The notes under the pieces are model-generated. The model did no database searches and had not been told where the DNA came from. It saw only the letters and a list, made by a program, of their open reading frames with translations. This document shows positions 14,941 through 31,437 of a stretch of 32,000 bases of DNA, one piece after another. Both the position numbers and the translations under genes were made by a program. Positions within the stretch are counted from its first letter, which is position 1, and each line of letters opens with the position of its first letter. This stretch comes from Candidatus Saccharimonadota bacterium (GTDB lineage Bacteria; Patescibacteriota; Gracilibacteria; BD1-5; UBA6164). The stretch is from assembly GCA_965229705.1 (NCBI GenBank), contig OZ245922.1, forward strand, positions 840,001-872,000. The letters run 5' to 3'.

Positions 14941-16431
14941 ATGAGAGTTCCTCTGCATATATATTTTGCAGGATTTTTGGGCGGTATTCTTGCCTGAATA
15001 TTACTTGCAAATATTTTTGTGTTTTCTCTTTTGGGACTTGTTTTTTTGCTGTGTTTTTTTTGTCTCTTCGTCCTCATATCATACTTTTTGGAAAAATATT
15101 TTTGTTCTTTGTTCTGCGTATTGCTCGTGGGATTTTCTCTCGGGCTTGGTATATCATATGTTTCTTTTGTCTCATACACAGAGCAACTTCAAGATCTGAG
15201 TATTTATACAGATGAATATTATACCTATACATCAAAAGTGCTTTCGGTACATAAGAGAGATACGTATGAAGATACCTATCTTATGGCACTCTATTCTATC
15301 GAGAATACACGATATACCTGAGTAAGACATCTACTTACCGTTCCAAAAAACTTTTCTCTTCAATATGGAGACAAGGTTTCACTGAGAGGAAAGATGTATT
15401 TTTTTGAAGATTTTGATGGTGTTTCATATCAGAAATATATGCTTTCTCAGCGGATATATTTTTCTCTCAGAGCTTCTCATATACATACGCAAGAAAACAT
15501 AGGAAATTATTTTTTTGGTCAGCTGTTCTCTTTGAGAGATACCATGCTATTACAAATTCACTCGCTCTTTCCGAGAAAGGAAGCCATATTTCTCGCAGGA
15601 ATCCTCATAGGAGCAAGAGAGGATATTCCTGATGAGCTATCAGAGGATTTCAATAAATCTTGACTGACACACTTTATTGCGGTAAGTGGTTTTAATATTA
15701 GTTTGTGTGTGATCTTTATCGTATTCTTGGTGCAGTATTTTCCCCCGTGGATTCAAAGGATATCCGTAACTCTATGTGTCACTGTTTTTACAATATTTGT
15801 ATGAATGTGAGCACCTGTTGTTCGAGCAGGGATTATGGGAGTACTTGGATATATATTTTTACAAAGTGGAAATAAAGTTAATAGTCTGGTTCTTCTCTTG
15901 TTTGCCGCAGTATGTATGAGTATATACTCGCCTTTGAGTTTGAACTATGATGTAAGTATGCATCTGAGTTTTTTGGCAGTTTTAGGTATCATCCTCACGC
16001 AAGGTTTTTTTATGAAGATTTTTTCATTTGTTCCACAGAGTTTTGCCCTCAGAGAAGCGCTGGTACTGACATGTAGCGCTTTTGTTCTGACATTGCCGAT
16101 TATGCTGTTTCAGTTTGGGCAATTTACAGCCCTTGCTCCTATCAGCAATGTTCTTGTTGCTTGGACGATTCCTCTCGCTATGCTCCTGTGAGCATGCACA
16201 CTTATTGCTGACGCTATTTGGTGACCACTGGGTTTTTTGTTTGCCTACACGACTTGGCTTTTACTACACTATGATATGATCATCGTAGAGTTTTTTGGAA
16301 ATCTTGAGTGGGCAGTGTGGCAAAGAGATTTTTGACTCTATAAAAGCTATTTTCAGGCCCTGTATTTTATAGTGATATGATGGGGTATTGCATATTTTTA
16401 TTTGCAGGAACATTTGCGTAATAAGACCTAG
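14941..16431 (+). CDS. comEC: ComEC/Rec2-family DNA internalisation channel (short form, no C-terminal metallo-beta-lactamase domain)
   Basis: 496 aa. Competence-domain motifs FNKSGLTHFIAVSGFNIS and GMGAPVVRAGIMG, with many TM helices. Track fragments 15019, 15394 and 15835 are all in one frame. Ends TAG 16429-16431. Confidence 0.8.
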
Positions 16432-17507: not shown

Positions 17508-17649
17508 GCAAGAAAAAGAGACTCTTTTTACTTTTTTCTCCTTTTCTCCTTTGTCTCAAACTCTAAGAGATACTCTCTCACACCCTCAAAATTTCATTCT
17601 TGGATAAGTGTTTCAAGATCTCATTTTTCGGTCCTTTCTCTAAACACCC

Positions 17650-17683
17650 AAAAAACAACCCCGGGGTATCATACCCCGGGGTT
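17650..17683 (-). terminator. Rho-independent terminator (minus strand), AACCCCGGGGTA stem family
   Basis: 12-bp perfect stem aaccccggggta/taccccggggtt with loop tca. The minus strand reads the hairpin followed by gtttttt. Confidence 0.75.
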
Positions 17684-17690
17684 AAACAGG

Positions 17691-17779
17691 CTCTGAGAAA
17701 CTCCTTTTCTCTCTCCTTTTGCAAAGGAGAGATGGCTCGTGAGAGCCAGAGAGGATGAGAAATTTTTTGTTTTTCAGAG
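17691..17779 (+). ncRNA. Unclassified structured RNA element, copy 2
   Basis: Same 89-nt architecture as 5506-5594. Outer stem ctctgagaaac/gtttttcagag is fully paired with one G-U. Hairpin 17710-17732, and GNRA hairpin ggctc-GUGA-gagcc at 17734-17747. Sits between two near-identical minus-strand terminators. Confidence 0.45.
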
Positions 17780-17806
17780 CTTTCTCTAGAGTACAGAGCA
17801 ATCCCC

Positions 17807-17839
17807 AAAAACAACCCCGGAGTATCATACCCCGGGGTT
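17807..17839 (-). terminator. Rho-independent terminator of the pilin-FISUMP gene (minus strand)
   Basis: Near-duplicate of 17650-17683 (aaccccggagta/taccccggggtt, one mismatch) with a minus-strand T run. Begins 12 nt after stop 17851-17853. Confidence 0.7.
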
Positions 17840-17850
17840 GAAACCACGCC

Positions 17851-19308
17851 CTAATCCTTGATACATCTGACTGAATATCAATACGATTGTGAAGAATCGC
17901 TACTACCAACAGTAGTATAATTATACAAAAAAAATCTTCTATAAGCCTTAGATCCATTTACCGTACTAGACCATAGATACCCATAGTACCCACGACGATA
18001 GAATTCTTTATTACTATTACTCCAACCACTCAGAGGAATCTGGAGGACTGAGGCAATACTTGTATCACTATTAGTCGTTGAGTGGTACGTCCATCACTGT
18101 CATTTACACTGGAAACTATCACTGTCTGAAGTTCTACAATTTGATCCATTCAAGTATTCTTCGAGTGTTTCCCATTCTGCTCTACTTGGTACATGGTATC
18201 CCACTCAACATACAAGGTTCGTATCATTTGCGTCTATATCATTATCATTATCCGTATCGAGAGAATCCCAAGTGTAGAACTTTCCCCATATATTATCTAC
18301 GGCAGTATCTCCATATATATTCGTTCCAGTAAACCAATCATTGGCTTTAGAGGTACTCGCCATCGTTATATCTCAAGCAGTACAGTTACTTGTATCTATG
18401 TAGTTTCCACTATAATTATAACAACCATAAGAAGAATGTACCTCTCCACTATAATTATTCGTCCCTATATCCGCATCTGTTTGTCACCACTCAAGTCATG
18501 CTCCTAGCGTCGAGTTACATCATGCCCACGTCTGTGTTCAGATAGTCACATCTGCTCTGTCACAGTTTGGGTCTTGATCTCTCCAGTCTGTAGGAGCAGT
18601 AGAAGCAGTCGTTGAACTACTCGAAACACTCGAAGTACTCGTCCCTTCCTCTCTCTCCTCCTCTATCGTCTCTCATAGATTTTCTCCTGTATCCGTTGCG
18701 GTATCATCATTTTTAAAGTAGGCAGTATAACTCTCCGTGCTTCCATCTAAATCTAACGCTCCAGCCGTCTTGACTGCCTCTATCTCATGAACGGGAGTCT
18801 TCGTTGTCTCATCAAGGAGTATTCCTAACTTTTCTCCAAATACGACTGGATAAAGATTACTATAGTCTTTATCGGCATATGCCTGAGGAAAAAATACCGT
18901 TGGAACATTTTGTTCTTCCTCGAGAAATGCCATAAGCTGAAAATCACTTTTATCTGCAGAGAGATAATACACAAAATATGAATCATCTTTTGGATCAACA
19001 CCTCCTCGACTAAAGTCGAGGATATCGAGGATATTTGCTCCAATATTTCCTTGGTATCCTAAGAGACTCGATCCGTCTTGTATCTCTACAGCGTCATCAG
19101 GCATAGGCAGATCATACTTTGTCGCGTAGAGCTCTAAACCGTCATAGATAGATGTAAGTTGAGAAAGCCTATTGGTATCTCGTACTCCTGCGAGATACCC
19201 AGAAAAAGAGACAAATCCTATAGCAGAGAGTACAGCGAGGATTGTTACTACCGTGATCAGTTCTACCAGAGTAAAACCCTGAGTTTTTTTTAAGAAAGAT
19301 GGCTTCAT
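17851..19308 (-). CDS. Type IV prepilin-like protein fused to a C-terminal FISUMP (Fibrobacter succinogenes major paralogous) domain
   Basis: 485 aa from ATG 19308 (alternative ATG 19377). Class III signal MKPSFLKKTQG/FTLVELITVVTILAVLSAIGF. Track ORF 18673..19377 stops at TGA. Read-through gives an acidic/Ser-Thr linker, then VTIGTQTWAGCNS...GYHVPSRAEWETL...GYLWSST...GYSVRCIKD, then TAG 17851-17853. Confidence 0.8.
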
Positions 19309-25710: not shown

Positions 25711-26103
25711 CTATCTATATATCCATGGAGCTATAGCATTGAGAATTACTCATGAAAGCATAAGTATTACCAGTCCTATGAGCGTTTTGGTAATTCTGTC
25801 CTTGGCGCTTGTTTTCAGACCATCATTTAGCCCAGCCATAGAATACAATATTCCGTTTATTACAATAAATAGCACACAGGCAAGAGATGTAATATAGGTA
25901 AAATACTTTATCACTTCTCCAGCTACGAGCATCACGCTCTCAAATCCTGGTTGTATATTACAGGTATAGATACCCTTACTATCAGGCTCCTCATAACAAT
26001 TTGCTCCAGGGATAGGCTCGGTTACCTGTACCTCTACTGCTCATACCTGAAATGCAAAACAGAGGCAAAGACAATATACAGAGAAAAGAAGAATATTTTT
26101 CAT
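25711..26103 (-). CDS. T4SS-type pilin (TrbC/VirB2-like, CPR/Gram-positive T4SS pilin family), single module
   Basis: 130 aa. Signal peptide MKNILLFSVYCLCLCFAFQ, TM1 YITSLACVLFIVINGILY, loop SMAGLNDGLKTSAKDRITKT, TM2 LIGLVILMLSGVILNAIAPWI. Starts 16 nt after the upstream gene stop. Ends TAG 25711-25713. Confidence 0.65.
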
Positions 26104-26118
26104 AATGATTTTTTAGTA

Positions 26119-27024
26119 TTAAATAGTTGCCAAATCAAGTAAAAATGTGTATGCCGCAAGCAAAATCAGCGTTGCAAGTATCGTACTCACAACAATACTC
26201 TTTGCTTTTTTGACTTGCTCTTCTTCACCGTTTGATCCAACATAATAGTATCCTGCAAGTGTCAGAAAAAATATGGCAACAGGAGCGGCAAAAAAGAGAG
26301 CAAGGTTTGCAAGAGACTCAAAAAGGTTGATACCAGACTCTATACTTCCTCAAAAAGCGACTCATTTCCATGCTTCTATGATCCCGACAAATACGAGAGC
26401 AAGAATCGTGTATATCAGTTTTTCTTTTGCTTCTTTCATGCGGTCTTCTCGTCATCTTGAAGTTACGAGAGTTACTCCTGCGAGTGTCAGAAAAAATACA
26501 GCACCTGCAAATATCGCAACCTCAAGAAAAAGGACAATCTGATCATTAAGCGTATTTTCAAATACAAAAAAATCAAAAAGGATATTTCCCGAACTTTCAG
26601 TAGACTCTTCTCAGAAAGCGTCATCTGATATTCGTGATCCAACACGGGTTGTTCCATCTTTATAAAAAGCTTCATAGAGGGTTCCTGGTATATTGATAAA
26701 TATGAGTGCTATAAGAGCATACCAGAGTTGTCTTTTGGATCCCGAGAGTTGTTCTTCATCAGACCCCATAGACATAACCATCATTGCTCAGGCATATACG
26801 ATATAGATGATCATCACTGCCATGAGTATCCATTTTACAAAAGCGAGAATAGAAAACCCTGTATTACTTACATCTTGTAAAGTGTTTCCTGATGTAGGGA
26901 TATCTAGAGAGGCATCGCGTATTTCACTTGATCCTGGGATATTAACGACTCCAGCGTTTGCAAGCTCTCCTCCAAGCACTAAGAGTGAGAGGCTGAGGAG
27001 TATGAGGAGGATTATTTTTTTCAT
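26119..27024 (-). CDS. Membrane protein made of three tandem T4SS-pilin-like modules (signal peptide plus 3x [TM-acidic loop-TM])
   Basis: 301 aa from ATG 27024 (alternative ATG 27057), checked codon by codon to TAA 26119-26121. Loops are MSMGSDEEQLSGSKRQLWYALIALIF, LVTSRGREDRMKEAKEKLIYTILALVF and YYVGSNGEEEQVKKAKSIVVSTILATLIL. The track shows only 26788..27057. Confidence 0.65.
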
Positions 27025-27190
27025 AGTTTGGAAAATATTTTGAAATATTTGTCTCATTATAGCATAACTTTTCTCAATACACGAAAGGATACAAAAAAAA
27101 CCTGAAAATAAAAATTGACATATAAAAATAAAAATATATACATCCTTTCAAACAAAAACACAACAACTCAAAAATGAAAGGGACTCAAGA

Positions 27191-27490
27191 ATGGGGATTA
27201 TTTTGATTCTAGTAGGAGGAGCGATAGGATTTTTTATCCTAGGATTTGCGCTAGCGTATATAGGATATAATTTTTTTTCGAAAGCTTCTATAGGGCTTTC
27301 AGCTATTGCAAGCGTAATTTCGTTTGCGATGAGTTTATATTTTCTTCCTTATGAAAATAAGGAGTCACCCGGTTATGAAACCTTTCCATCATATAATGAT
27401 AATGGTGGTTACTACAACCATCAGGGAAATGGTTATTACCATTTGGGTAGACACCGCTATATGATAGTGGGACCGTATATCAAAGAGTAA
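27191..27490 (+). CDS. Small membrane protein with Tyr/Gly/Asn-rich tail, hypothetical
   Basis: 99 aa with two TM helices, then PGYETFPSYNDNGGYYNHQGNGYYHLGRHRY. Has its own promoter-like TTGACA-16 nt-TATACA (27114-27141) and a terminator. Lies opposite to the surrounding pilin genes. Confidence 0.5.
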   Translation: MGIILILVGGAIGFFILGFALAYIGYNFFSKASIGLSAIASVISFAMSLYFLPYENKESPGYETFPSYNDNGGYYNHQGNGYYHLGRHRYMIVGPYIKE

Positions 27491-27528
27491 TTACATTAAT
27501 TATCTTTTTGATACACTCAACATAGGAA

Positions 27529-27550
27529 GGGGCCTTTAGGTCCCTTTTTT
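27529..27550 (+). terminator. Rho-independent terminator of the 27191-27490 gene
   Basis: ggggcc-ttta-ggtccc (one G-U) followed by T6. The T run overlaps the stop codon of the convergent minus-strand gene. Confidence 0.6.
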
Positions 27551-28538
27551 ATATCACTCCTTCAGGACGCAAGAAAAATGTGAGTATGAGATAGTTGAGA
27601 GCCAGGATTACCAGTCATACAGCAATATAGATAATAGACTGTTTTCACTTTTTGATTTTTTCCTCGTCTCCACCAGAGAGTAGTATCTGAGACCCTGCAT
27701 ACATGATCATCAACAGCACTACAAGAGCCACAAAACCATTAAACCAATTTATTAACATTATTACGATATTGATTCATTCTGATACATCAGCCTGATTGAC
27801 ACATTTTCCTCCATCAACCACAATAAACCCGTTTCCGTAATCTTCACAGTTTATCTTTCCATAAAATGCTTCTACCACCTCTTGCGCAAAACGCACGATA
27901 AGAAAACCTATCAGTGCATAAACAATAGAATTCTTAGAGTTTTTGATAGCTTCCTCATTTCCATTTGCAGTAACAAGAGTATAAAAGGCAAAGACCGCAA
28001 TCGCGATAAAGAAAAGAGATACCAGCGTTTGCAAGAGAGCTATCAAGGGCATCACAATATAATCCATAAATCCAACAGCGGTATACGCTGAAACCCCCTT
28101 ATCATATCATACCGTGACAAAGGCGTAGGCAACCTGCATAATGATGAGTCATACACTGATCCATATGATCCCTTTTTTAAAGTTTCCTAGCTCTTCTTCG
28201 CTATTGTTTGAAAAAATAAGCTTGAGAGTAATAATCAAAAAATACACACTCGCAATCATATAAAATAGATTTTTTATATCTCGAGCAAGTCGGATAAGCG
28301 TATTATAGAGTCATTCTCATCATCATTTACTTACACTGATAAATTGATCATTTTCATCAAAGTCCTTGAGCTTATCATTTTTTCGAGCACTACTCGATTC
28401 ACTCCCATCAACACTTCCGATAGAAAGATTATTTGCCTGAGAAAACAGACGATTATCAGCGCTTGCTTCTCAGACAAAAGAAACATATACCAACATCGTG
28501 CATATGACAAACAAAAGAGTGATAAGTATTTTTTTCAT
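27549..28538 (-). CDS. Membrane protein made of three tandem T4SS-pilin-like modules (signal peptide plus 3x [TM-acidic loop-TM])
   Basis: 329 aa, checked codon by codon from ATG 28538 to TAA 27549-27551. Signal MKKILITLLFVICTMLVYVSFVGEASA. Loops are LIFSNNSEEELGNFKKGIIWISVGLII, TLVTANGNEEAIKNSKNSIVYALIGFLIV and QILLSGGDEEKIKKGKQSIIYIAVGLVIL. A Cys pair lies in the second inter-module loop. Confidence 0.65.
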
Positions 28539-28611: not shown

Positions 28612-31437
28612 TTATGATTTTTCATCTTCACTCATAATTCCAAGTCGCGCTTCTATCTCTATATCGACATATTTTTTCTTTCGTCCATATTTTTTTCGTG
28701 AGTACTCTTTGATGATAGCAGCTGCCTTTGGATTTTTATAGGTATTGTCCCAAATAGTCTTGAGATCAAACGGTCGAGTAGTAGCGTTGTCTATATTGAG
28801 CTTACAGTAGGTAGTGAAGTTGGCAATTCCTATGATGTCCTGCTGAGAAAGCAGAGGAGCGTATTCTTTTTCCATATACTCAGCATCATCAGCACCAACC
28901 TTAAAAGATTGTATGGTTCCAGCATTTCCAAATACGGCATCTTTGATAGAGGGCTTATCCCCTGTTCGTGCACCATTTCCTCAGATTTGCGCAATAAACT
29001 GATGAGCCATGATCAGAGCCAGTCGATATTTTCGGGCTTCTGAGAGTATTTCTCCAAAAGTTTCTGTGGCAAAGTTTTGGAACTCATCTACATAGAGATA
29101 AAAATCTTTACGCTCAGACTCATCAATATCAGCTCGACTCATAGCTGCCATATTGATTTTTGATACAAATATCAGACCAAGGAGCTGAGCATTGAGAGCC
29201 CCTATTTTTCCTTTTGAGAGATTTACGAGCAGGATTTTTCGGTTATCCATGACTTCGCGAAGATTAAAAGCAGATTTTGGTTGACCGATAATGTTACGAA
29301 TCGTTGAATTGGTGATAAATGGTCAAAATTTTGCAGAAAAGTAGGGAATCATTTCTTGTTTTTCTCTATCACCCGTATTGGCATATTCATGGTCCCAAAA
29401 GGACTTAACGACAGGATTTTTGAGATTACGAGTTTTGTATTTCATAAACGCTTCATCAACGAAGAGTCGTGGAACATCGATGAGTGTTCCTCCATCTTCT
29501 TCATCTTCCATAAGTGTCAAACATCCGTTACGAAAGTAGTGTTGTATACGAGGTCCAAATATTTCATCACCAAATATTTTGATAAATATTTCTGTTGCAT
29601 CAAGCGCGGCTCTATCCATTTCTCTTTTGCGAATTTCAGGATCAGAAGAGATGATATCGAGCATGTTCATTCCCATAGGTCTTTCGGTATCAGAAGGATC
29701 AAAGATGATAACATCTTTTGCTCTTTCTTTTGGGACAAAGTCGAGCACATCTTCGACGAGGTCTCCGTGTGGGTCGATAACGCAGAGTCCATCACCATTC
29801 CAAACATCTTGCCGTGCAAGGTATCCGATGTAGACAGATTTTCCTCATCCAGATTTTCCAATGATATATTGGTGTCTCCCTCTATCTTTTCGTGAGAAGT
29901 ATATTGGTGTTTTTTTATTGCGGTACTCATTCCATCCAAGAAGTACTCCATCTTTGTAGACAGGAAACCCTCAGAGGTGTCGATGAACAAGCTCAGTTTT
30001 TCCAGTTTTTTCATTTTTTTCTTCGAGCATTGTTGCCTGCGACGGAGATTTGAGATTGTGAGGAACAGGGAGTTTTTTGTACTCGAGCCAGCTGATAATA
30101 GGAGACTTATTATAGTTAATATCTGGCAGATGATAGAGCGTTGATGCTTCATCAGCTGAAAAAATAGATATATTTTGAAAAAATCCTACGAGTTTATGGC
30201 GAAAGGCAAAATGTCGACAAGGAGTAAATATCCATGGCATAGAGTCTTCGTATATTTGAGGATTATCAAGAGCATTGTTGTACTCATCAGTAAAGATACT
30301 TGCAGCTGCTACAACAGCATGGACAGCATTTTCAGATTGCTTATGAGTTTGAGATGAAACAATAATACGAATAGAGCTCTCAAAAGATGGCTGAGCAGCG
30401 GACTCTCCCATGATTTTATGAGCTTCTGTCTCTGCCTGATTAAATATTTTATACGCGTCTCACTCACTGGCTCATGGAGCGTTGTTTCATCAGACCATAT
30501 CTTCGGGCCCTTCTATCATCGCAACAATAGGATTCCACAGAAAACTCAGAGGCTTAAAAAATACTCATAAAAGTCACATTTTTCGTCATTTTTTATATTT
30601 TCCTTTTGCGACTTGTCGAGCAGCGCGAAGAGCTTTTTTATTCCATCAAGAGTTAGTGGGTTTTATCACAACTTGGTATACGGCTTTATCTGCTTTATCG
30701 AGTCCTCCAAAAACATTGGTAAAGTTATTGATAGGATCATCTTCGAGGTACTTAAATGCTTTTATCGGAAATACATCGTCATGCTCTTTTCAGAGAGATG
30801 CTGCTCGCATATGATAGCCTTTTTGTGCAAGATTGATATAGTCTACTTTATCAACTTTTTCAATTTCGGCATCATTATAGATAGAGGTAATATGTTGAGA
30901 GACAAGATTGACATAGTTTTCGTAGGTAACAATAAAAAAACTTACTTCGCCATTTTCATATACGAGCTCGAGGGCGATTTTTGAGTGTCCAAAGAAAAAG
31001 TTGAGGAGTGTGTCACGCAGTCCTGCCTCGGAGAGTTTATGGATCGCTTTGTAAAACATCGACATTTGTCAGATCTTTTCCTTAAAATCTTTTTTTGTTT
31101 CTTTTTCTTTATCGAGTTTTGAGTCTGCTCTCGGAACAGTGATCTTGAGGTAACGGAGATTTTTAGAGTACCAGAGCTCAAAACCAAGTCTGATAGACTT
31201 GTAGAGTATGAAGAGTAGCAGAGCCCAAAACAGGAGCTGCAGGATGAGATATCCTACCTCATTCATCAGACCTCAAAAATCCATGGAAAAGAGTCAGTCT
31301 CACCCCTCAGAACTGTCTGCTTGTTTTGGTTCACTACTGCCCACTTGTTGCTCGATACTTCGACCAAGAGCAGCCTGAGCTTTGGTGTATCATATACAAA
31401 ATAGAGCGATACAAATGGCAAAATACTTCAATTTCAT
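28612..31437 (-). CDS. VirD4/TraG/TraD-like type IV coupling-protein-family P-loop ATPase with two N-terminal TM segments and a large uncharacterised N-terminal domain
   Basis: 941 aa single frame joining track ORFs 31069, 30790, 29971, 29323, 28981 and 28612, with no TAA or TAG between them. Signal/TM1 MKLKYFAICIALFCIGYTKAQA, TM2 YLILQLLFWALLLFILY. Walker A IIGKSGGGKS (a G is TGA), VIDPHGDL, Walker B FYLYVDEFQNF, TraG-D_C-like RKYRLALIMAHQFIAQI...FGNAGTIQSFKVG. Confidence 0.75.

What the first reader, a model, noticed from the sequence alone, without database searches (positions are those of the whole stretch)
26119..28538. Two polypilin genes: three T4SS-pilin modules concatenated in one polypeptide
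VirB2/TrbC-type pilins are normally proteins of about 100 aa with one TM-loop-TM hairpin. Here two proteins each contain a signal peptide followed by three such hairpins. Each central loop fits the pattern small-G/N-(D/E)EE-x3-K-x-K-x2-(I/V/L)-x-Y/W-x3-G/A-L. The loops are SNNSEEELGNFKKGIIW, ANGNEEAIKNSKNSIVY and SGGDEEKIKKGKQSIIY in one protein, and MGSDEEQLSGSKRQLWY, SRGREDRMKEAKEKLIY and SNGEEEQVKKAKSIVVS in the other. The single pilin has AGLNDGLKTSAKDRITK. That makes seven paralogous modules in 2.8 kb. They could be processed into monomers, or form a covalently linked pseudo-trimer building block, or have been re-purposed as a six-TM channel that replaces VirB6. The repeats are diverged at nucleotide level, so the arrangement is an old fusion and not an assembly artefact.
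Basis: partly seen in the sequence, partly recalled or inferred. Interest (0 to 1): 0.7.

Follow-up and report, generated by a model that had tools for sequence, protein, structure and literature searches.

The report
Triple-hairpin VirB2-like pilin fusion genes
Two neighbouring genes of a Gracilibacteria chromosome each join three copies of the small hairpin protein that normally builds conjugation-type pili into one six-helix membrane protein; the fusion is real, old and always next to a secretion ATPase, and related fusions of up to about 15 copies exist elsewhere but appear not to have been described.

Summary
The window reads UGA as glycine (code 25). Read that way, 25711-28538 (minus strand) holds three genes:
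- a 329-aa protein C and a 301-aa protein B, each a signal peptide plus three Pfam T4SS_pilin (PF18895) hairpins;
- a 130-aa one-hairpin pilin A.

The modules are significantly alike as protein (z 7-12) but share at most 28 nt of DNA. AlphaFold models of orthologues show three helical hairpins.

The operon of T4CP-like ATPase, C, B and A recurs in 12 other Gracilibacteria loci. A two-gene variant (tri-pilin plus ATPase) occurs in four more. 235 of 240 database homologues have exactly three modules. Module positions are orthologous between paralogues, so the fusion is ancient and not an artefact.

Other CPR lineages carry arrays of separate one-module genes. However, a survey of 1.84 billion proteins also found unrelated fusions with 3 to about 15 modules, some matching TrbC/VirB2 strongly.

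Function is inferred. I think they are most likely uncleaved pseudo-trimer subunits of a VirB2-type conduit, worked by the adjacent ATPase. A VirB6-like platform role or cleavage into monomers cannot be excluded. I found no paper describing fused VirB2-like pilins. Verdict: a new variant of a known kind.

The parts
28612..31437 (-). T4CP/VirD4-like ATPase (941 aa). It has an N-terminal signal-like helix and a second TM, a middle region called DUF8128 in orthologues, and a C-terminal P-loop NTPase with Walker A GKSGGGKS. It is the first gene of the operon.
   Evidence: Pfam PF02534 T4SS-DNA_transf 2.7e-12 (46.7 bits, cut-off 20.1), plus DUF87 and TrwB_AAD_bind. TrwB in the PDB, E 0.002. NCBIfam VirD4-like CD1115, TraD and CedD, all below their cut-offs. 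Orthologues carry PF26449 DUF8128 + PF02534. Mean identity across 12 loci is 77%.
27549..28538 (-). Tri-pilin C (329 aa). It has a signal peptide (about aa 1-27, ...GEASA|DN), a variable N-region of about 45 aa, and three T4SS_pilin hairpins. A Cys-x14-Cys loop lies between hairpins 2 and 3.
   Evidence: PF18895, three stretches, 7.6e-17. NCBIfam NF045849 pilin-like conjugal transfer protein, 44.8 bits against a cut-off of 40, three stretches. Six TM peaks. Orthologue model with three hairpins, pLDDT 71. 129 homologues, nearly all 300-345 aa. Cys231 and Cys246 are at least 90% conserved.
28089..28331 (-). Module C1 (loop SNNSEEELGNFKKG); the most divergent module.
   Evidence: Own module HMM, 4.4e-29. 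hhalign C1~V1 118, against other modules at most 35.
27846..28088 (-). Module C2 (loop ANGNEEAIKNSKNS).
   Evidence: Module HMM 1.6e-29. C2~V2 156.
27555..27797 (-). Module C3 (loop SGGDEEKIKKGKQS); the module closest to the family consensus.
   Evidence: Module HMM 2e-30. Best Pfam stretch 260-322. C3~V3 127. B1, B2 and B3 all score highest against C3.
26119..27024 (-). Tri-pilin B (301 aa from MKKIILL; alternative ATG at 27057). It has a signal peptide (...ELANA|GV) and three T4SS_pilin hairpins. The junction between hairpins 2 and 3 is only about 4 residues and is highly conserved.
   Evidence: PF18895, three stretches, 1.5e-12. 283 homologues of about 300 aa. Orthologue model with a signal helix plus three hairpins, pLDDT 73.9. 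Junction length and conservation.
26647..26892 (-). Module B1 (loop MGSDEEQLSGSKRQ).
   Evidence: Module HMM 3.8e-32.
26338..26562 (-). Module B2 (loop SRGREDRMKEAKEK).
   Evidence: Module HMM 3.6e-24.
26128..26355 (-). Module B3 (loop SNGEEEQVKKAKS).
   Evidence: Module HMM 1.1e-24.
25711..26103 (-). Mono-pilin A (130 aa). It has a signal peptide, a conserved Cys pair in the mature N-region, and one T4SS_pilin hairpin (module 25714-25956). It is the last gene of the operon and converges on mutL.
   Evidence: PF18895 2.3e-8. Module HMM 3.9e-29. Present after B in all 12 variant-1 loci. Cys36 and Cys48 are conserved.

Best explanation
C and B are polytopic membrane proteins made by ancient in-frame concatenation of three VirB2/T4SS_pilin-type helical hairpins behind one Sec signal peptide.

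After signal-peptide cleavage the N-terminus is outside. The six helices cross the membrane alternately. The three conserved, Lys-rich G-[DN]EE-x2-K-x2-K loops face the cytoplasm, and the linkers and the C-terminus are outside. This puts every hairpin in the orientation of a membrane-resident VirB2 pilin.

I propose that they are not cut. Instead they act as covalent pseudo-heterotrimers of pilin. Together with each other and with the one-hairpin pilin A, they would build the VirB2-type, lipid-associated tube (a pilus or short stalk/conduit) of the Patescibacteria T4SS-like machine. The VirD4-like ATPase encoded immediately upstream would be the cytoplasmic motor or docking partner acting on the conserved loops. 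Fusion fixes the order and 1:1:1 ratio of three specialised pilin paralogues, which other CPR bacteria encode as separate tandem genes.

Shown here: the architecture, the topology-compatible charge bias, the age and conservation of the fusion, and the operon partnership. Inferred: absence of cleavage, polymerisation, the ATPase interaction, and the transported substrate.
For: Architecture:
- Three PF18895 stretches in each protein, and internal homology with z 7-12.
- AlphaFold models of orthologues have exactly three long helical hairpins. The C-family model has pLDDT 71 and pTM 0.52. The B-family model has pLDDT 73.9 and pTM 0.51.

Topology:
- K+R density is 19-25% in the loops against 5-6% in the linkers.
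- Conserved Cys pairs lie in C linker 2 and in the N-region of A, so those regions are outside the cell.
- Some C-family relatives carry N-terminal DUF11/CARDB or TSP3 surface-type domains.

Not cleaved:
- The median gap between modules is only 4 aa (B2 to B3) and 10 aa (C1 to C2). There are no internal signal peptides.
- The B2-B3 junction is among the best-conserved parts of B.

Ancient and selected:
- 235 of 240 homologues have three modules.
- The 3+3+1 operon occurs in the window and 12 other loci, all using code 25.
- Modules of the paralogous variant-2 tri-pilin match C position by position: 118, 156 and 127.

Same role as free pilins:
- Other CPR loci hold arrays of 4-6 separate one-module genes.
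- In L024 a six-module gene sits inside such an array.
- Module number varies from 2 to about 15 across the wider class, as expected for a periodic polymer rather than a fixed channel.
- Several of these proteins match TrbC/VirB2 PF04956 at up to 144.6 bits.

ATPase partner: a T4CP-like gene is adjacent in 17 of 17 loci and is 77% identical across loci.

Literature: separate VirB2-like pilin arrays are known in CPR and are essential in S. epibionticum (PMC12102498, PMC10633639, PMC12857230).
Against: - There is no experimental or structural evidence that any PF18895 protein polymerises.
- The window proteins do not reach PF04956 TrbC/VirB2 (no match at E <= 1; only 2 of 81 C-family members hit it weakly).
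- The module profile finds no solved pilin by sequence, and Foldseek finds nothing significant.
- Within Gracilibacteria the module number is rigidly three and each position has its own conserved signature. That would suit a fixed membrane complex as well as a polymer.
- The minimal variant-2 unit is just a tri-pilin plus an ATPase, with no mono-pilin.
- No VirB4, VirB6, VirB3 or VirB8 gene lies in the window.
- I had no access to model coordinates or PAE, so I could not check whether 4-10-residue linkers fit a pilus lattice.
- Evolutionary rates of A, B and C are alike at 45-48% identity, so they give no discrimination.
Confidence: 0.45

Rival explanations
1. Pilin-derived VirB6 substitute. 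The tri-pilins would be static six-TM inner-membrane platform or pore proteins that dock the T4CP-like ATPase. They would either nucleate polymerisation of the one-hairpin pilin A or form the translocation channel themselves. In this way they would replace the VirB6 that Gracilibacteria lack.
For: - VirB6 homologues are reported absent from Gracilibacteria (PMC12102498, read).
- The module number is fixed at three and each position is specialised.
- The minimal conserved pair is a tri-pilin plus an ATPase.
- The cytoplasmic loops are the best-conserved parts of the proteins.
Against: - There is no sequence match to TrbL/VirB6 (PF04610) at E <= 1 and no structural match to solved VirB6, TrwI or DotA chains.
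- Two different tri-pilins plus a mono-pilin are kept together, which is more than one platform needs.
- In other lineages, fused pilins with 2 to about 15 modules sit inside ordinary pilin arrays. That variability is hard to reconcile with a defined channel.
Confidence: 0.27
2. Polyprotein precursors. Each product would be cleaved on the outer face of the membrane into three free pilins, by signal peptidase I acting after the in-to-out helices or by another protease. The fusion would serve only to give equimolar synthesis.
For: - Helices 2 and 4 have the N-in/C-out orientation of a signal peptide.
- Small residues follow some of them, for example ...QVAYA|F in C and ...IEA|W and GVA|F in B (read directly from the sequence).
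- Canonical VirB2/TrbC pilins undergo several processing steps (established knowledge).
- B linker 1 (median 32 aa) and C linker 2 (26 aa) are long and mostly variable.
Against: - Candidate AxA-type sites are not conserved in the family consensus.
- Two junctions are only 4 and 10 residues long, and the B2-B3 junction is strongly conserved.
- A conserved Cys-x14-Cys in C linker 2 suggests a structured functional loop.
- Both AlphaFold models give near-continuous helices across the short junctions.
Confidence: 0.15
3. Not a secretion component. The proteins would be generic multi-pass membrane proteins such as a transporter or immunity protein. Their matches to a 'pilin' HMM would only reflect TM-loop-TM composition. 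Alternatively, the long ORFs would be artefacts of reading UGA through three separate genes.
For: - PF18895 was named by inference only.
- Weak chance hits to other membrane families appear in the scans: Oxidored_q3, Cyt_bd_oxida_II and Glucos_trans_II.
- Many database homologues are mistranslated, with W at UGA positions.
Against: - The charged loop motif with an invariant Lys is conserved.
- Scores are well above the cut-offs of two independent libraries.
- Related polypilins cross-match TrbC/VirB2 at 137-145 bits.
- A T4CP-like ATPase is adjacent in 17 of 17 loci.
- UGA = Gly is proven at invariant Gly residues of housekeeping enzymes.
- UGA is used at every conserved Gly column, not specially in the linkers.
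- A six-module ORF translates without UGA under the standard code.
Confidence: 0.05

Closest known systems
Tandem arrays of VirB2-like pilin genes in Patescibacteria T4SS loci. Examples are the six essential pilins of Ca. Southlakia epibionticum ML1 and arrays of 2-11 genes in 383 CPR assemblies (PMC10633639, PMC12102498, PMC12857230).
   Same: - Same Pfam family (PF18895).
- Same Sec signal peptide plus TM-loop-TM hairpin.
- Several diverged paralogues sit side by side, and the setting is a monoderm CPR host.
- I recovered such arrays in Paceibacter, Dojkabacteria, Liptonbacteria and Portnoybacteria loci using the module profile.
   Different: Here the paralogues are covalently joined three per polypeptide. 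Linkers are 4-32 residues and there are no internal signal peptides. The genes sit next to a VirD4-like ATPase rather than virB4. The cited papers describe only separate genes.
Canonical conjugative pilins VirB2 / TrbC / TraA (Pfam PF04956 and relatives).
   Same: - Signal peptide, two hydrophobic helices and a short basic loop.
- Predicted N-out/C-out topology with the loop inside.
- Related polypilins match PF04956 at up to 144.6 bits, so the two families overlap.
   Different: - The window proteins do not reach PF04956.
- They have three hairpins rather than one.
- There is no evidence of cyclisation, acetylation or polymerisation.
- The host is a monoderm.
VirB6 / CedA / TedA polytopic T4SS membrane proteins.
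   Same: - Multi-pass inner-membrane proteins of T4SS-type machines.
- The N-terminal part of CedA and of A. tumefaciens VirB6 is reported to be homologous to the cognate pilin (PMC9905601).
- VirB6 is reported missing in Gracilibacteria (PMC12102498).
   Different: There is no detectable sequence or fold match to VirB6/TrbL here. The whole protein is made of pilin modules, not one pilin-like segment plus other helices.
Mbov_0395 / MMCAP2_0565 family pilin-like conjugal transfer protein of Mycoplasma ICEs (NCBIfam NF045849).
   Same: C scores 44.8 bits (cut-off 40) with three stretches, and B scores 24.8 bits. This fits the reported kinship of CPR T4SS with the MPF-FATA class of Firmicutes and Tenericutes (PMC12102498).
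   Different: The NCBIfam profile is 80 positions, that is, one hairpin. Here there are three per protein, in a chromosomal, non-ICE context with no relaxase in the window.

Membership tests
Pfam PF18895 T4SS_pilin | HMM score above the gathering cut-off (26.6 bits) | tested here: met
   C 61.6 bits, B 47.8 bits and A 34.4 bits, with 3, 3 and 1 stretches. 80 of 81 C-family members match.
Pfam PF18895 T4SS_pilin | Each unit is two hydrophobic helices joined by a short charged loop, behind an N-terminal signal peptide | tested here: met
   Hydropathy. Helical hairpins in both models. An N-terminal hydrophobic segment is followed by ASA|D, ANA|G or VGA|V, read from the sequence. No dedicated signal-peptide predictor was available.
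Canonical VirB2/TrbC pilin (PF04956) | HMM score above the cut-off (27.9 bits) | tested here: not met
   No PF04956 hit at E <= 1 for A, B or C. Among 81 C-family members, 2 hit it, the best at 24 bits. Homology is indirect, through other polypilins that match both families.
Canonical VirB2/TrbC pilin (PF04956) | One hairpin per mature polypeptide of about 70-100 aa | tested here: not met
   B and C have three hairpins per polypeptide. A meets the criterion.
Canonical VirB2/TrbC pilin (PF04956) | Encoded with virB4 and other mating-pair-formation genes | tested here: not met
   Within the 32-kb window, and within 6-10 kb of the orthologues, the only T4SS-type neighbour is a VirD4-like ATPase. 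The rest of the genome could not be searched.
Canonical VirB2/TrbC pilin (PF04956) | Polymerises with phospholipid into a helical pilus | not testable with these tools
   Needs cryo-EM or biochemistry.
VirB6/TrbL (PF04610) | Sequence or fold similarity to VirB6-family proteins | tested here: not met
   No PF04610 hit at E <= 1. No VirB6, TrwI or DotA chain appears among the listed Foldseek PDB matches, and none has E <= 0.001.
VirB6/TrbL (PF04610) | Polytopic inner-membrane protein with at least 5 TM helices | tested here: met
   Six TM helices are predicted.
T4CP VirD4/TraG/TrwB (for the neighbouring ATPase) | PF02534 above its cut-off, a Walker A P-loop, and N-terminal TM helices | tested here: met
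   PF02534 scores 46.7 bits against a cut-off of 20.1. The Walker A motif is GKSGGGKS. Two N-terminal hydrophobic segments are visible in the sequence. TrwB E 0.002. The NCBIfam equivalog cut-offs are not reached, so this is a distant member carrying an extra DUF8128 region.
NCBIfam NF045849 Mbov_0395 pilin-like conjugal transfer protein | Score above the cut-off (40 bits) | tested here: inconclusive
   C scores 44.8 bits, but as the sum of three stretches. B scores 24.8 bits, which is below the cut-off. A has no hit.

The most novel reading that the evidence does not exclude
Concatenated VirB2-type pilins ('polypilins', 2 to about 15 hairpins per chain) are a widespread, undescribed class of secretion-machine subunit. 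In them, covalent linkage would pre-assemble a stretch of pilus protofilament.

The Gracilibacteria tri-pilins, locked at three specialised hairpins and paired with a VirD4-like ATPase in genomes that lack VirB6, would then be a living intermediate. They would show how a polytopic VirB6-type pore or platform can evolve from pilin hairpins. They would also show that the tandem pilin paralogues of other CPR bacteria co-assemble into one hetero-polymer rather than serving as alternative variants.
Probability: 0.3. Interest if true: 0.8.

Novelty: new variant of a known kind. Interest (0 to 1): 0.6.

Why it matters
The T4SS of Patescibacteria is the only T4SS known to be essential for its owner, and the only monoderm one with VirB2-like pilins. 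What it builds and what it transports are both open questions (PMC10633639, PMC12857230).

A natural covalent fusion of three pilin paralogues works as a Rosetta-stone argument. It suggests that the separate paralogues in CPR pilin arrays work together in one assembly, in a fixed order. That differs from the antigenic-variation or host-range idea in PMC12102498.

The fusion also gives structural biologists a defined pseudo-trimer to express and image. It offers a testable candidate for the missing VirB6 function in Gracilibacteria. And it links to the proposal that VirB6 and VirB2 share ancestry (PMC9905601).

There are practical consequences too. HMM screens that expect 'small' pilins, and gene calls made with table 4 or table 11, mis-handle these genes.

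Tried and rejected
1. Structure prediction of the window's own proteins. The database copies of the window proteins, P0001 and P0121, are table-4 mistranslations with W at each UGA. I therefore modelled correctly translated orthologues instead: P0010, which is 61% identical to C, and P0204, which is 56% identical to B.

2. Foldseek of both models against the PDB gave nothing significant (best E 1.3 and 0.62). Simple helical hairpins are poor Foldseek queries, so this says little.

3. A profile of 30 modules against PDB sequences found no pilin.

4. Fusion by stop-codon reassignment. The idea was that ancestral UGA stops between tandem genes came to be read through once UGA became Gly. UGA codons do occur in every linker. 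However, UGA is used at 50-100% of every conserved Gly column. That includes the Gly before helix 1 of each module and of the unfused pilin A. The linkers also hold no remnant of a signal peptide. So there is no specific support.

5. 'The fusion also exists in standard-code Peribacteria.' The MAGs labelled Peribacteria all use code 25, so this argument was dropped. Standard-code support comes instead from L024.

6. Using evolutionary rate to tell a fast-evolving exposed pilin from a conserved platform. A, B and C are all 45-48% identical across loci, so this was uninformative.

7. The look-up of encoding contigs for P0001 failed, and the listing of cluster members gave no accession.

8. Rfam and tRNA scans of the window found nothing.

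9. Literature searches for fused, concatenated or poly-pilins found nothing relevant.
Full report
**The observation**

With the standard bacterial code the region 25.7-28.6 kb is a mosaic of short ORFs. Reading UGA as a sense codon raises the total length of long ORFs in the window from 7,465 to 25,172 residues. UGA falls on invariant glycines of housekeeping enzymes: SHMT GGHLTHG, GatA GTDTGGS, Fmt FFGTP and the Walker A GKSGGGKS. UGA is also 170 of 625 Gly codons. The genome therefore uses code 25, as in Gracilibacteria and Absconditabacteria.

Read this way, the minus strand carries four consecutive genes:
- a 941-aa ATPase (28612-31437);
- protein C (27549-28538, 329 aa);
- protein B (26119-27024, 301 aa);
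- protein A (25711-26103, 130 aa).

**The repeat is real**

Pfam T4SS_pilin (PF18895) matches three separate stretches in C (7.6e-17), three in B (1.5e-12) and one in A (2.3e-8). All are above the curated cut-off. Pairwise Smith-Waterman scores between modules within C and within B lie 7-12 standard deviations above shuffles. Thirty modules from correctly translated homologues align over 80 columns almost without gaps, with one invariant loop lysine.

Hydropathy gives a signal peptide plus six membrane helices in C, and five clear helices plus one weaker one in B. At DNA level only fragments of at most 28 nt are shared, so the duplications are old.

I therefore modelled correctly translated orthologues.
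- The C-family model (P0010, 81-sequence alignment) has pLDDT 71 and pTM 0.52. It has six long helices forming three hairpins.
- The B-family model (P0204, 87 sequences) has pLDDT 73.9 and pTM 0.51. It has a signal helix plus three hairpins.

Lys+Arg make up 19-25% of the three loops but 5-6% of the linkers. Two cysteines in C linker 2 and two in the mature N-region of A are conserved. Together these fit a topology with the N-terminus out, the loops in the cytoplasm, and the linkers and C-terminus out. Every hairpin then sits as a membrane-resident VirB2 pilin does.

**Not an artefact, and old**

C has 129 homologue clusters and B has 283, almost all 300-345 aa. With a module HMM built from the window, 235 of 240 retrieved homologues have exactly three modules. 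The exceptions are mostly fragments on short contigs.

In 16 loci fetched from other Gracilibacteria genomes, all using code 25, the ORFs are uninterrupted. Twelve loci have the same operon as the window: ATPase, then C, then B, then A. Four have a second arrangement: a tri-pilin followed directly by a shorter (about 810 aa) ATPase paralogue.

Profile-profile scores show that the modules of that second tri-pilin correspond to C position by position (118, 156 and 127, against 23-73 for other pairs). So a three-module gene already existed before that duplication. B1, B2 and B3 all resemble C3 most, and C1 is the most derived module.

**Surroundings**

The upstream ATPase matches T4SS-DNA_transf (VirD4/TraG; 46.7 bits against a cut-off of 20.1), DUF87 and TrwB_AAD_bind. 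It matches TrwB in the PDB weakly, and VirD4-like CD1115, TraD and CedD models below their cut-offs. Orthologues also carry DUF8128. It is adjacent to a tri-pilin in 17 of 17 loci. It is far more conserved than the pilins, at 77% mean identity against 45-48%.

The rest of the window is chromosomal housekeeping: SHMT, Fmt, EF-G, ComEC, Lgt, GatA, L19 and MutL. There is also a type IV pilin with a Fib_succ_major domain. The synteny is shared with L002. There is no relaxase, VirB4 or VirB6 in the window.

**Wider distribution**

In other CPR lineages (Paceibacter, Dojkabacteria, Liptonbacteria, Portnoybacteria) the same profile finds arrays of 4-6 separate one-module genes. That is the arrangement described in the literature (PMC12102498, PMC10633639, PMC12857230).

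A search of 1.84 billion representative proteins with the module profile gave 51,285 hits at E <= 0.001 and 193 at E <= 1e-30. I recounted 145 of the top 150 locally. About 72 are Gracilibacteria C/B-type tri-pilins and about 68 are other multi-module proteins. The spread is 104 proteins with three modules, 21 with four, and then five, six, seven, eight, nine and eleven or more. The remote search reported 15 stretches for one 1,775-aa protein.

These proteins are real. P0241 has six modules, translates under the standard code, and lies inside an array of single pilin genes. P0257 and P0333 match both PF18895 and TrbC/VirB2 PF04956, at 144.6 and 137.4 bits. So PF18895 modules are genuine VirB2 relatives, although the window proteins themselves do not reach PF04956. 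Some tri-pilins carry N-terminal DUF11/CARDB or TSP3 surface-type domains.

**How it most likely works**

This section is inference. Three points argue against simple proteolytic release of monomers:
- very short junctions, at medians of 4 and 10 residues;
- a strongly conserved B2-B3 junction;
- a conserved Cys-x14-Cys loop.

Three points favour building blocks of a periodic VirB2-type assembly over a fixed channel:
- the modules keep all pilin hallmarks;
- fused and free pilins share arrays;
- repeat number varies from 2 to about 15 in the wider class.

I therefore favour uncleaved pseudo-heterotrimers that co-assemble with A into the pilus or stalk of the CPR T4SS-like machine. The adjacent VirD4-like ATPase would act on the conserved cytoplasmic loops (confidence about 0.45).

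The main rival is a static VirB6-like platform (about 0.27). It is supported by the following:
- the reported absence of VirB6 in Gracilibacteria (PMC12102498);
- the reported homology of the VirB6/CedA N-terminus to the pilin (PMC9905601);
- the fixed number of three specialised modules;
- the minimal tri-pilin-plus-ATPase pair.

Cleavage to monomers (about 0.15) and a non-secretion role or artefact (about 0.05) are less likely.

**Comparison with what is known, and novelty**

The family (T4SS_pilin, VirB2-like) and its tandem gene arrays in CPR are known. Covalent concatenation of the hairpins is not mentioned in the papers I could search or read. It must, however, be visible as a domain architecture in databases. 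I rate it a new variant of a known kind, with interest 0.6.

**What led nowhere**

- Foldseek and PDB profile searches found nothing.
- The hypothesis that UGA reassignment created the fusions by read-through found no specific support.
- Evolutionary rates did not discriminate among A, B and C.
- The source genome could not be named.

Noticed in passing
window 27058-27548 (ORF 27191-27490, + strand): The gap between C and B is 491 nt here but about 3-20 nt in the other 12 loci. It holds an opposite-strand ORF of 99 aa, with two hydrophobic segments and a Tyr/Gly/Asn-rich tail, that has no Pfam or NCBIfam match. A GC-rich hairpin follows the C stop, and a TATAAT box lies just upstream of B. This looks like a small insertion that splits the operon into two transcription units.
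   Followed up: partly
database proteins P0001 and P0121 (equivalent to window C and B): The database copies of the window's own proteins, and many Logan and ENA homologues, are translated with table 4. They carry Trp at every UGA (for example KWWWEW in place of KGGGEG). This contaminates family alignments with W at conserved Gly columns.
   Followed up: yes
L008, L013, L014, L015: A second, paralogous unit occurs in other Gracilibacteria: a tri-pilin followed directly by a shorter (about 810 aa) T4CP-like ATPase. No B or A gene is present. It lies next to fmt and an ABC-2-type permease gene. L015 has a further ATPase paralogue upstream.
   Followed up: partly
L024 1777-3435; L025 950-4393; proteins P0241-P0385: Multi-module VirB2-like proteins with 4 to about 15 hairpins occur in standard-code metagenomic contigs. 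Some have nearly identical, recently duplicated modules. Others have Cys-containing linkers and strong TrbC/VirB2 matches. Their taxonomy was not determined.
   Followed up: partly
proteins P0055, P0264, P0279, P0074: These tri-pilin relatives have N-terminal extensions of 250-300 aa. The extensions carry DUF11/CARDB (Ig-like surface) domains or bacterial TSP3 calcium-binding repeats. This suggests that the tri-pilin N-terminus is used to display surface domains.
   Followed up: partly
window 17647-17686 and 17803-17842: Two copies (93% identical) of a 40-nt GC-rich palindromic element (AACCCCGGGGTATCATACCCCGGGGTT) lie 156 nt apart. They sit in the gap between an unknown 345-aa gene and the type IV pilin gene. 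The table-25 ORF called there (17563-17847) is probably spurious.
   Followed up: no
window 17851-19308 (-) and 14941-16431 (+): A type IV (T4P) pilin with an N-terminal methylation motif and a C-terminal Fibrobacter succinogenes major domain, and a ComEC competence channel gene, lie 7-11 kb from the T4SS-pilin operon. The same neighbourhood is conserved in L002.
   Followed up: no
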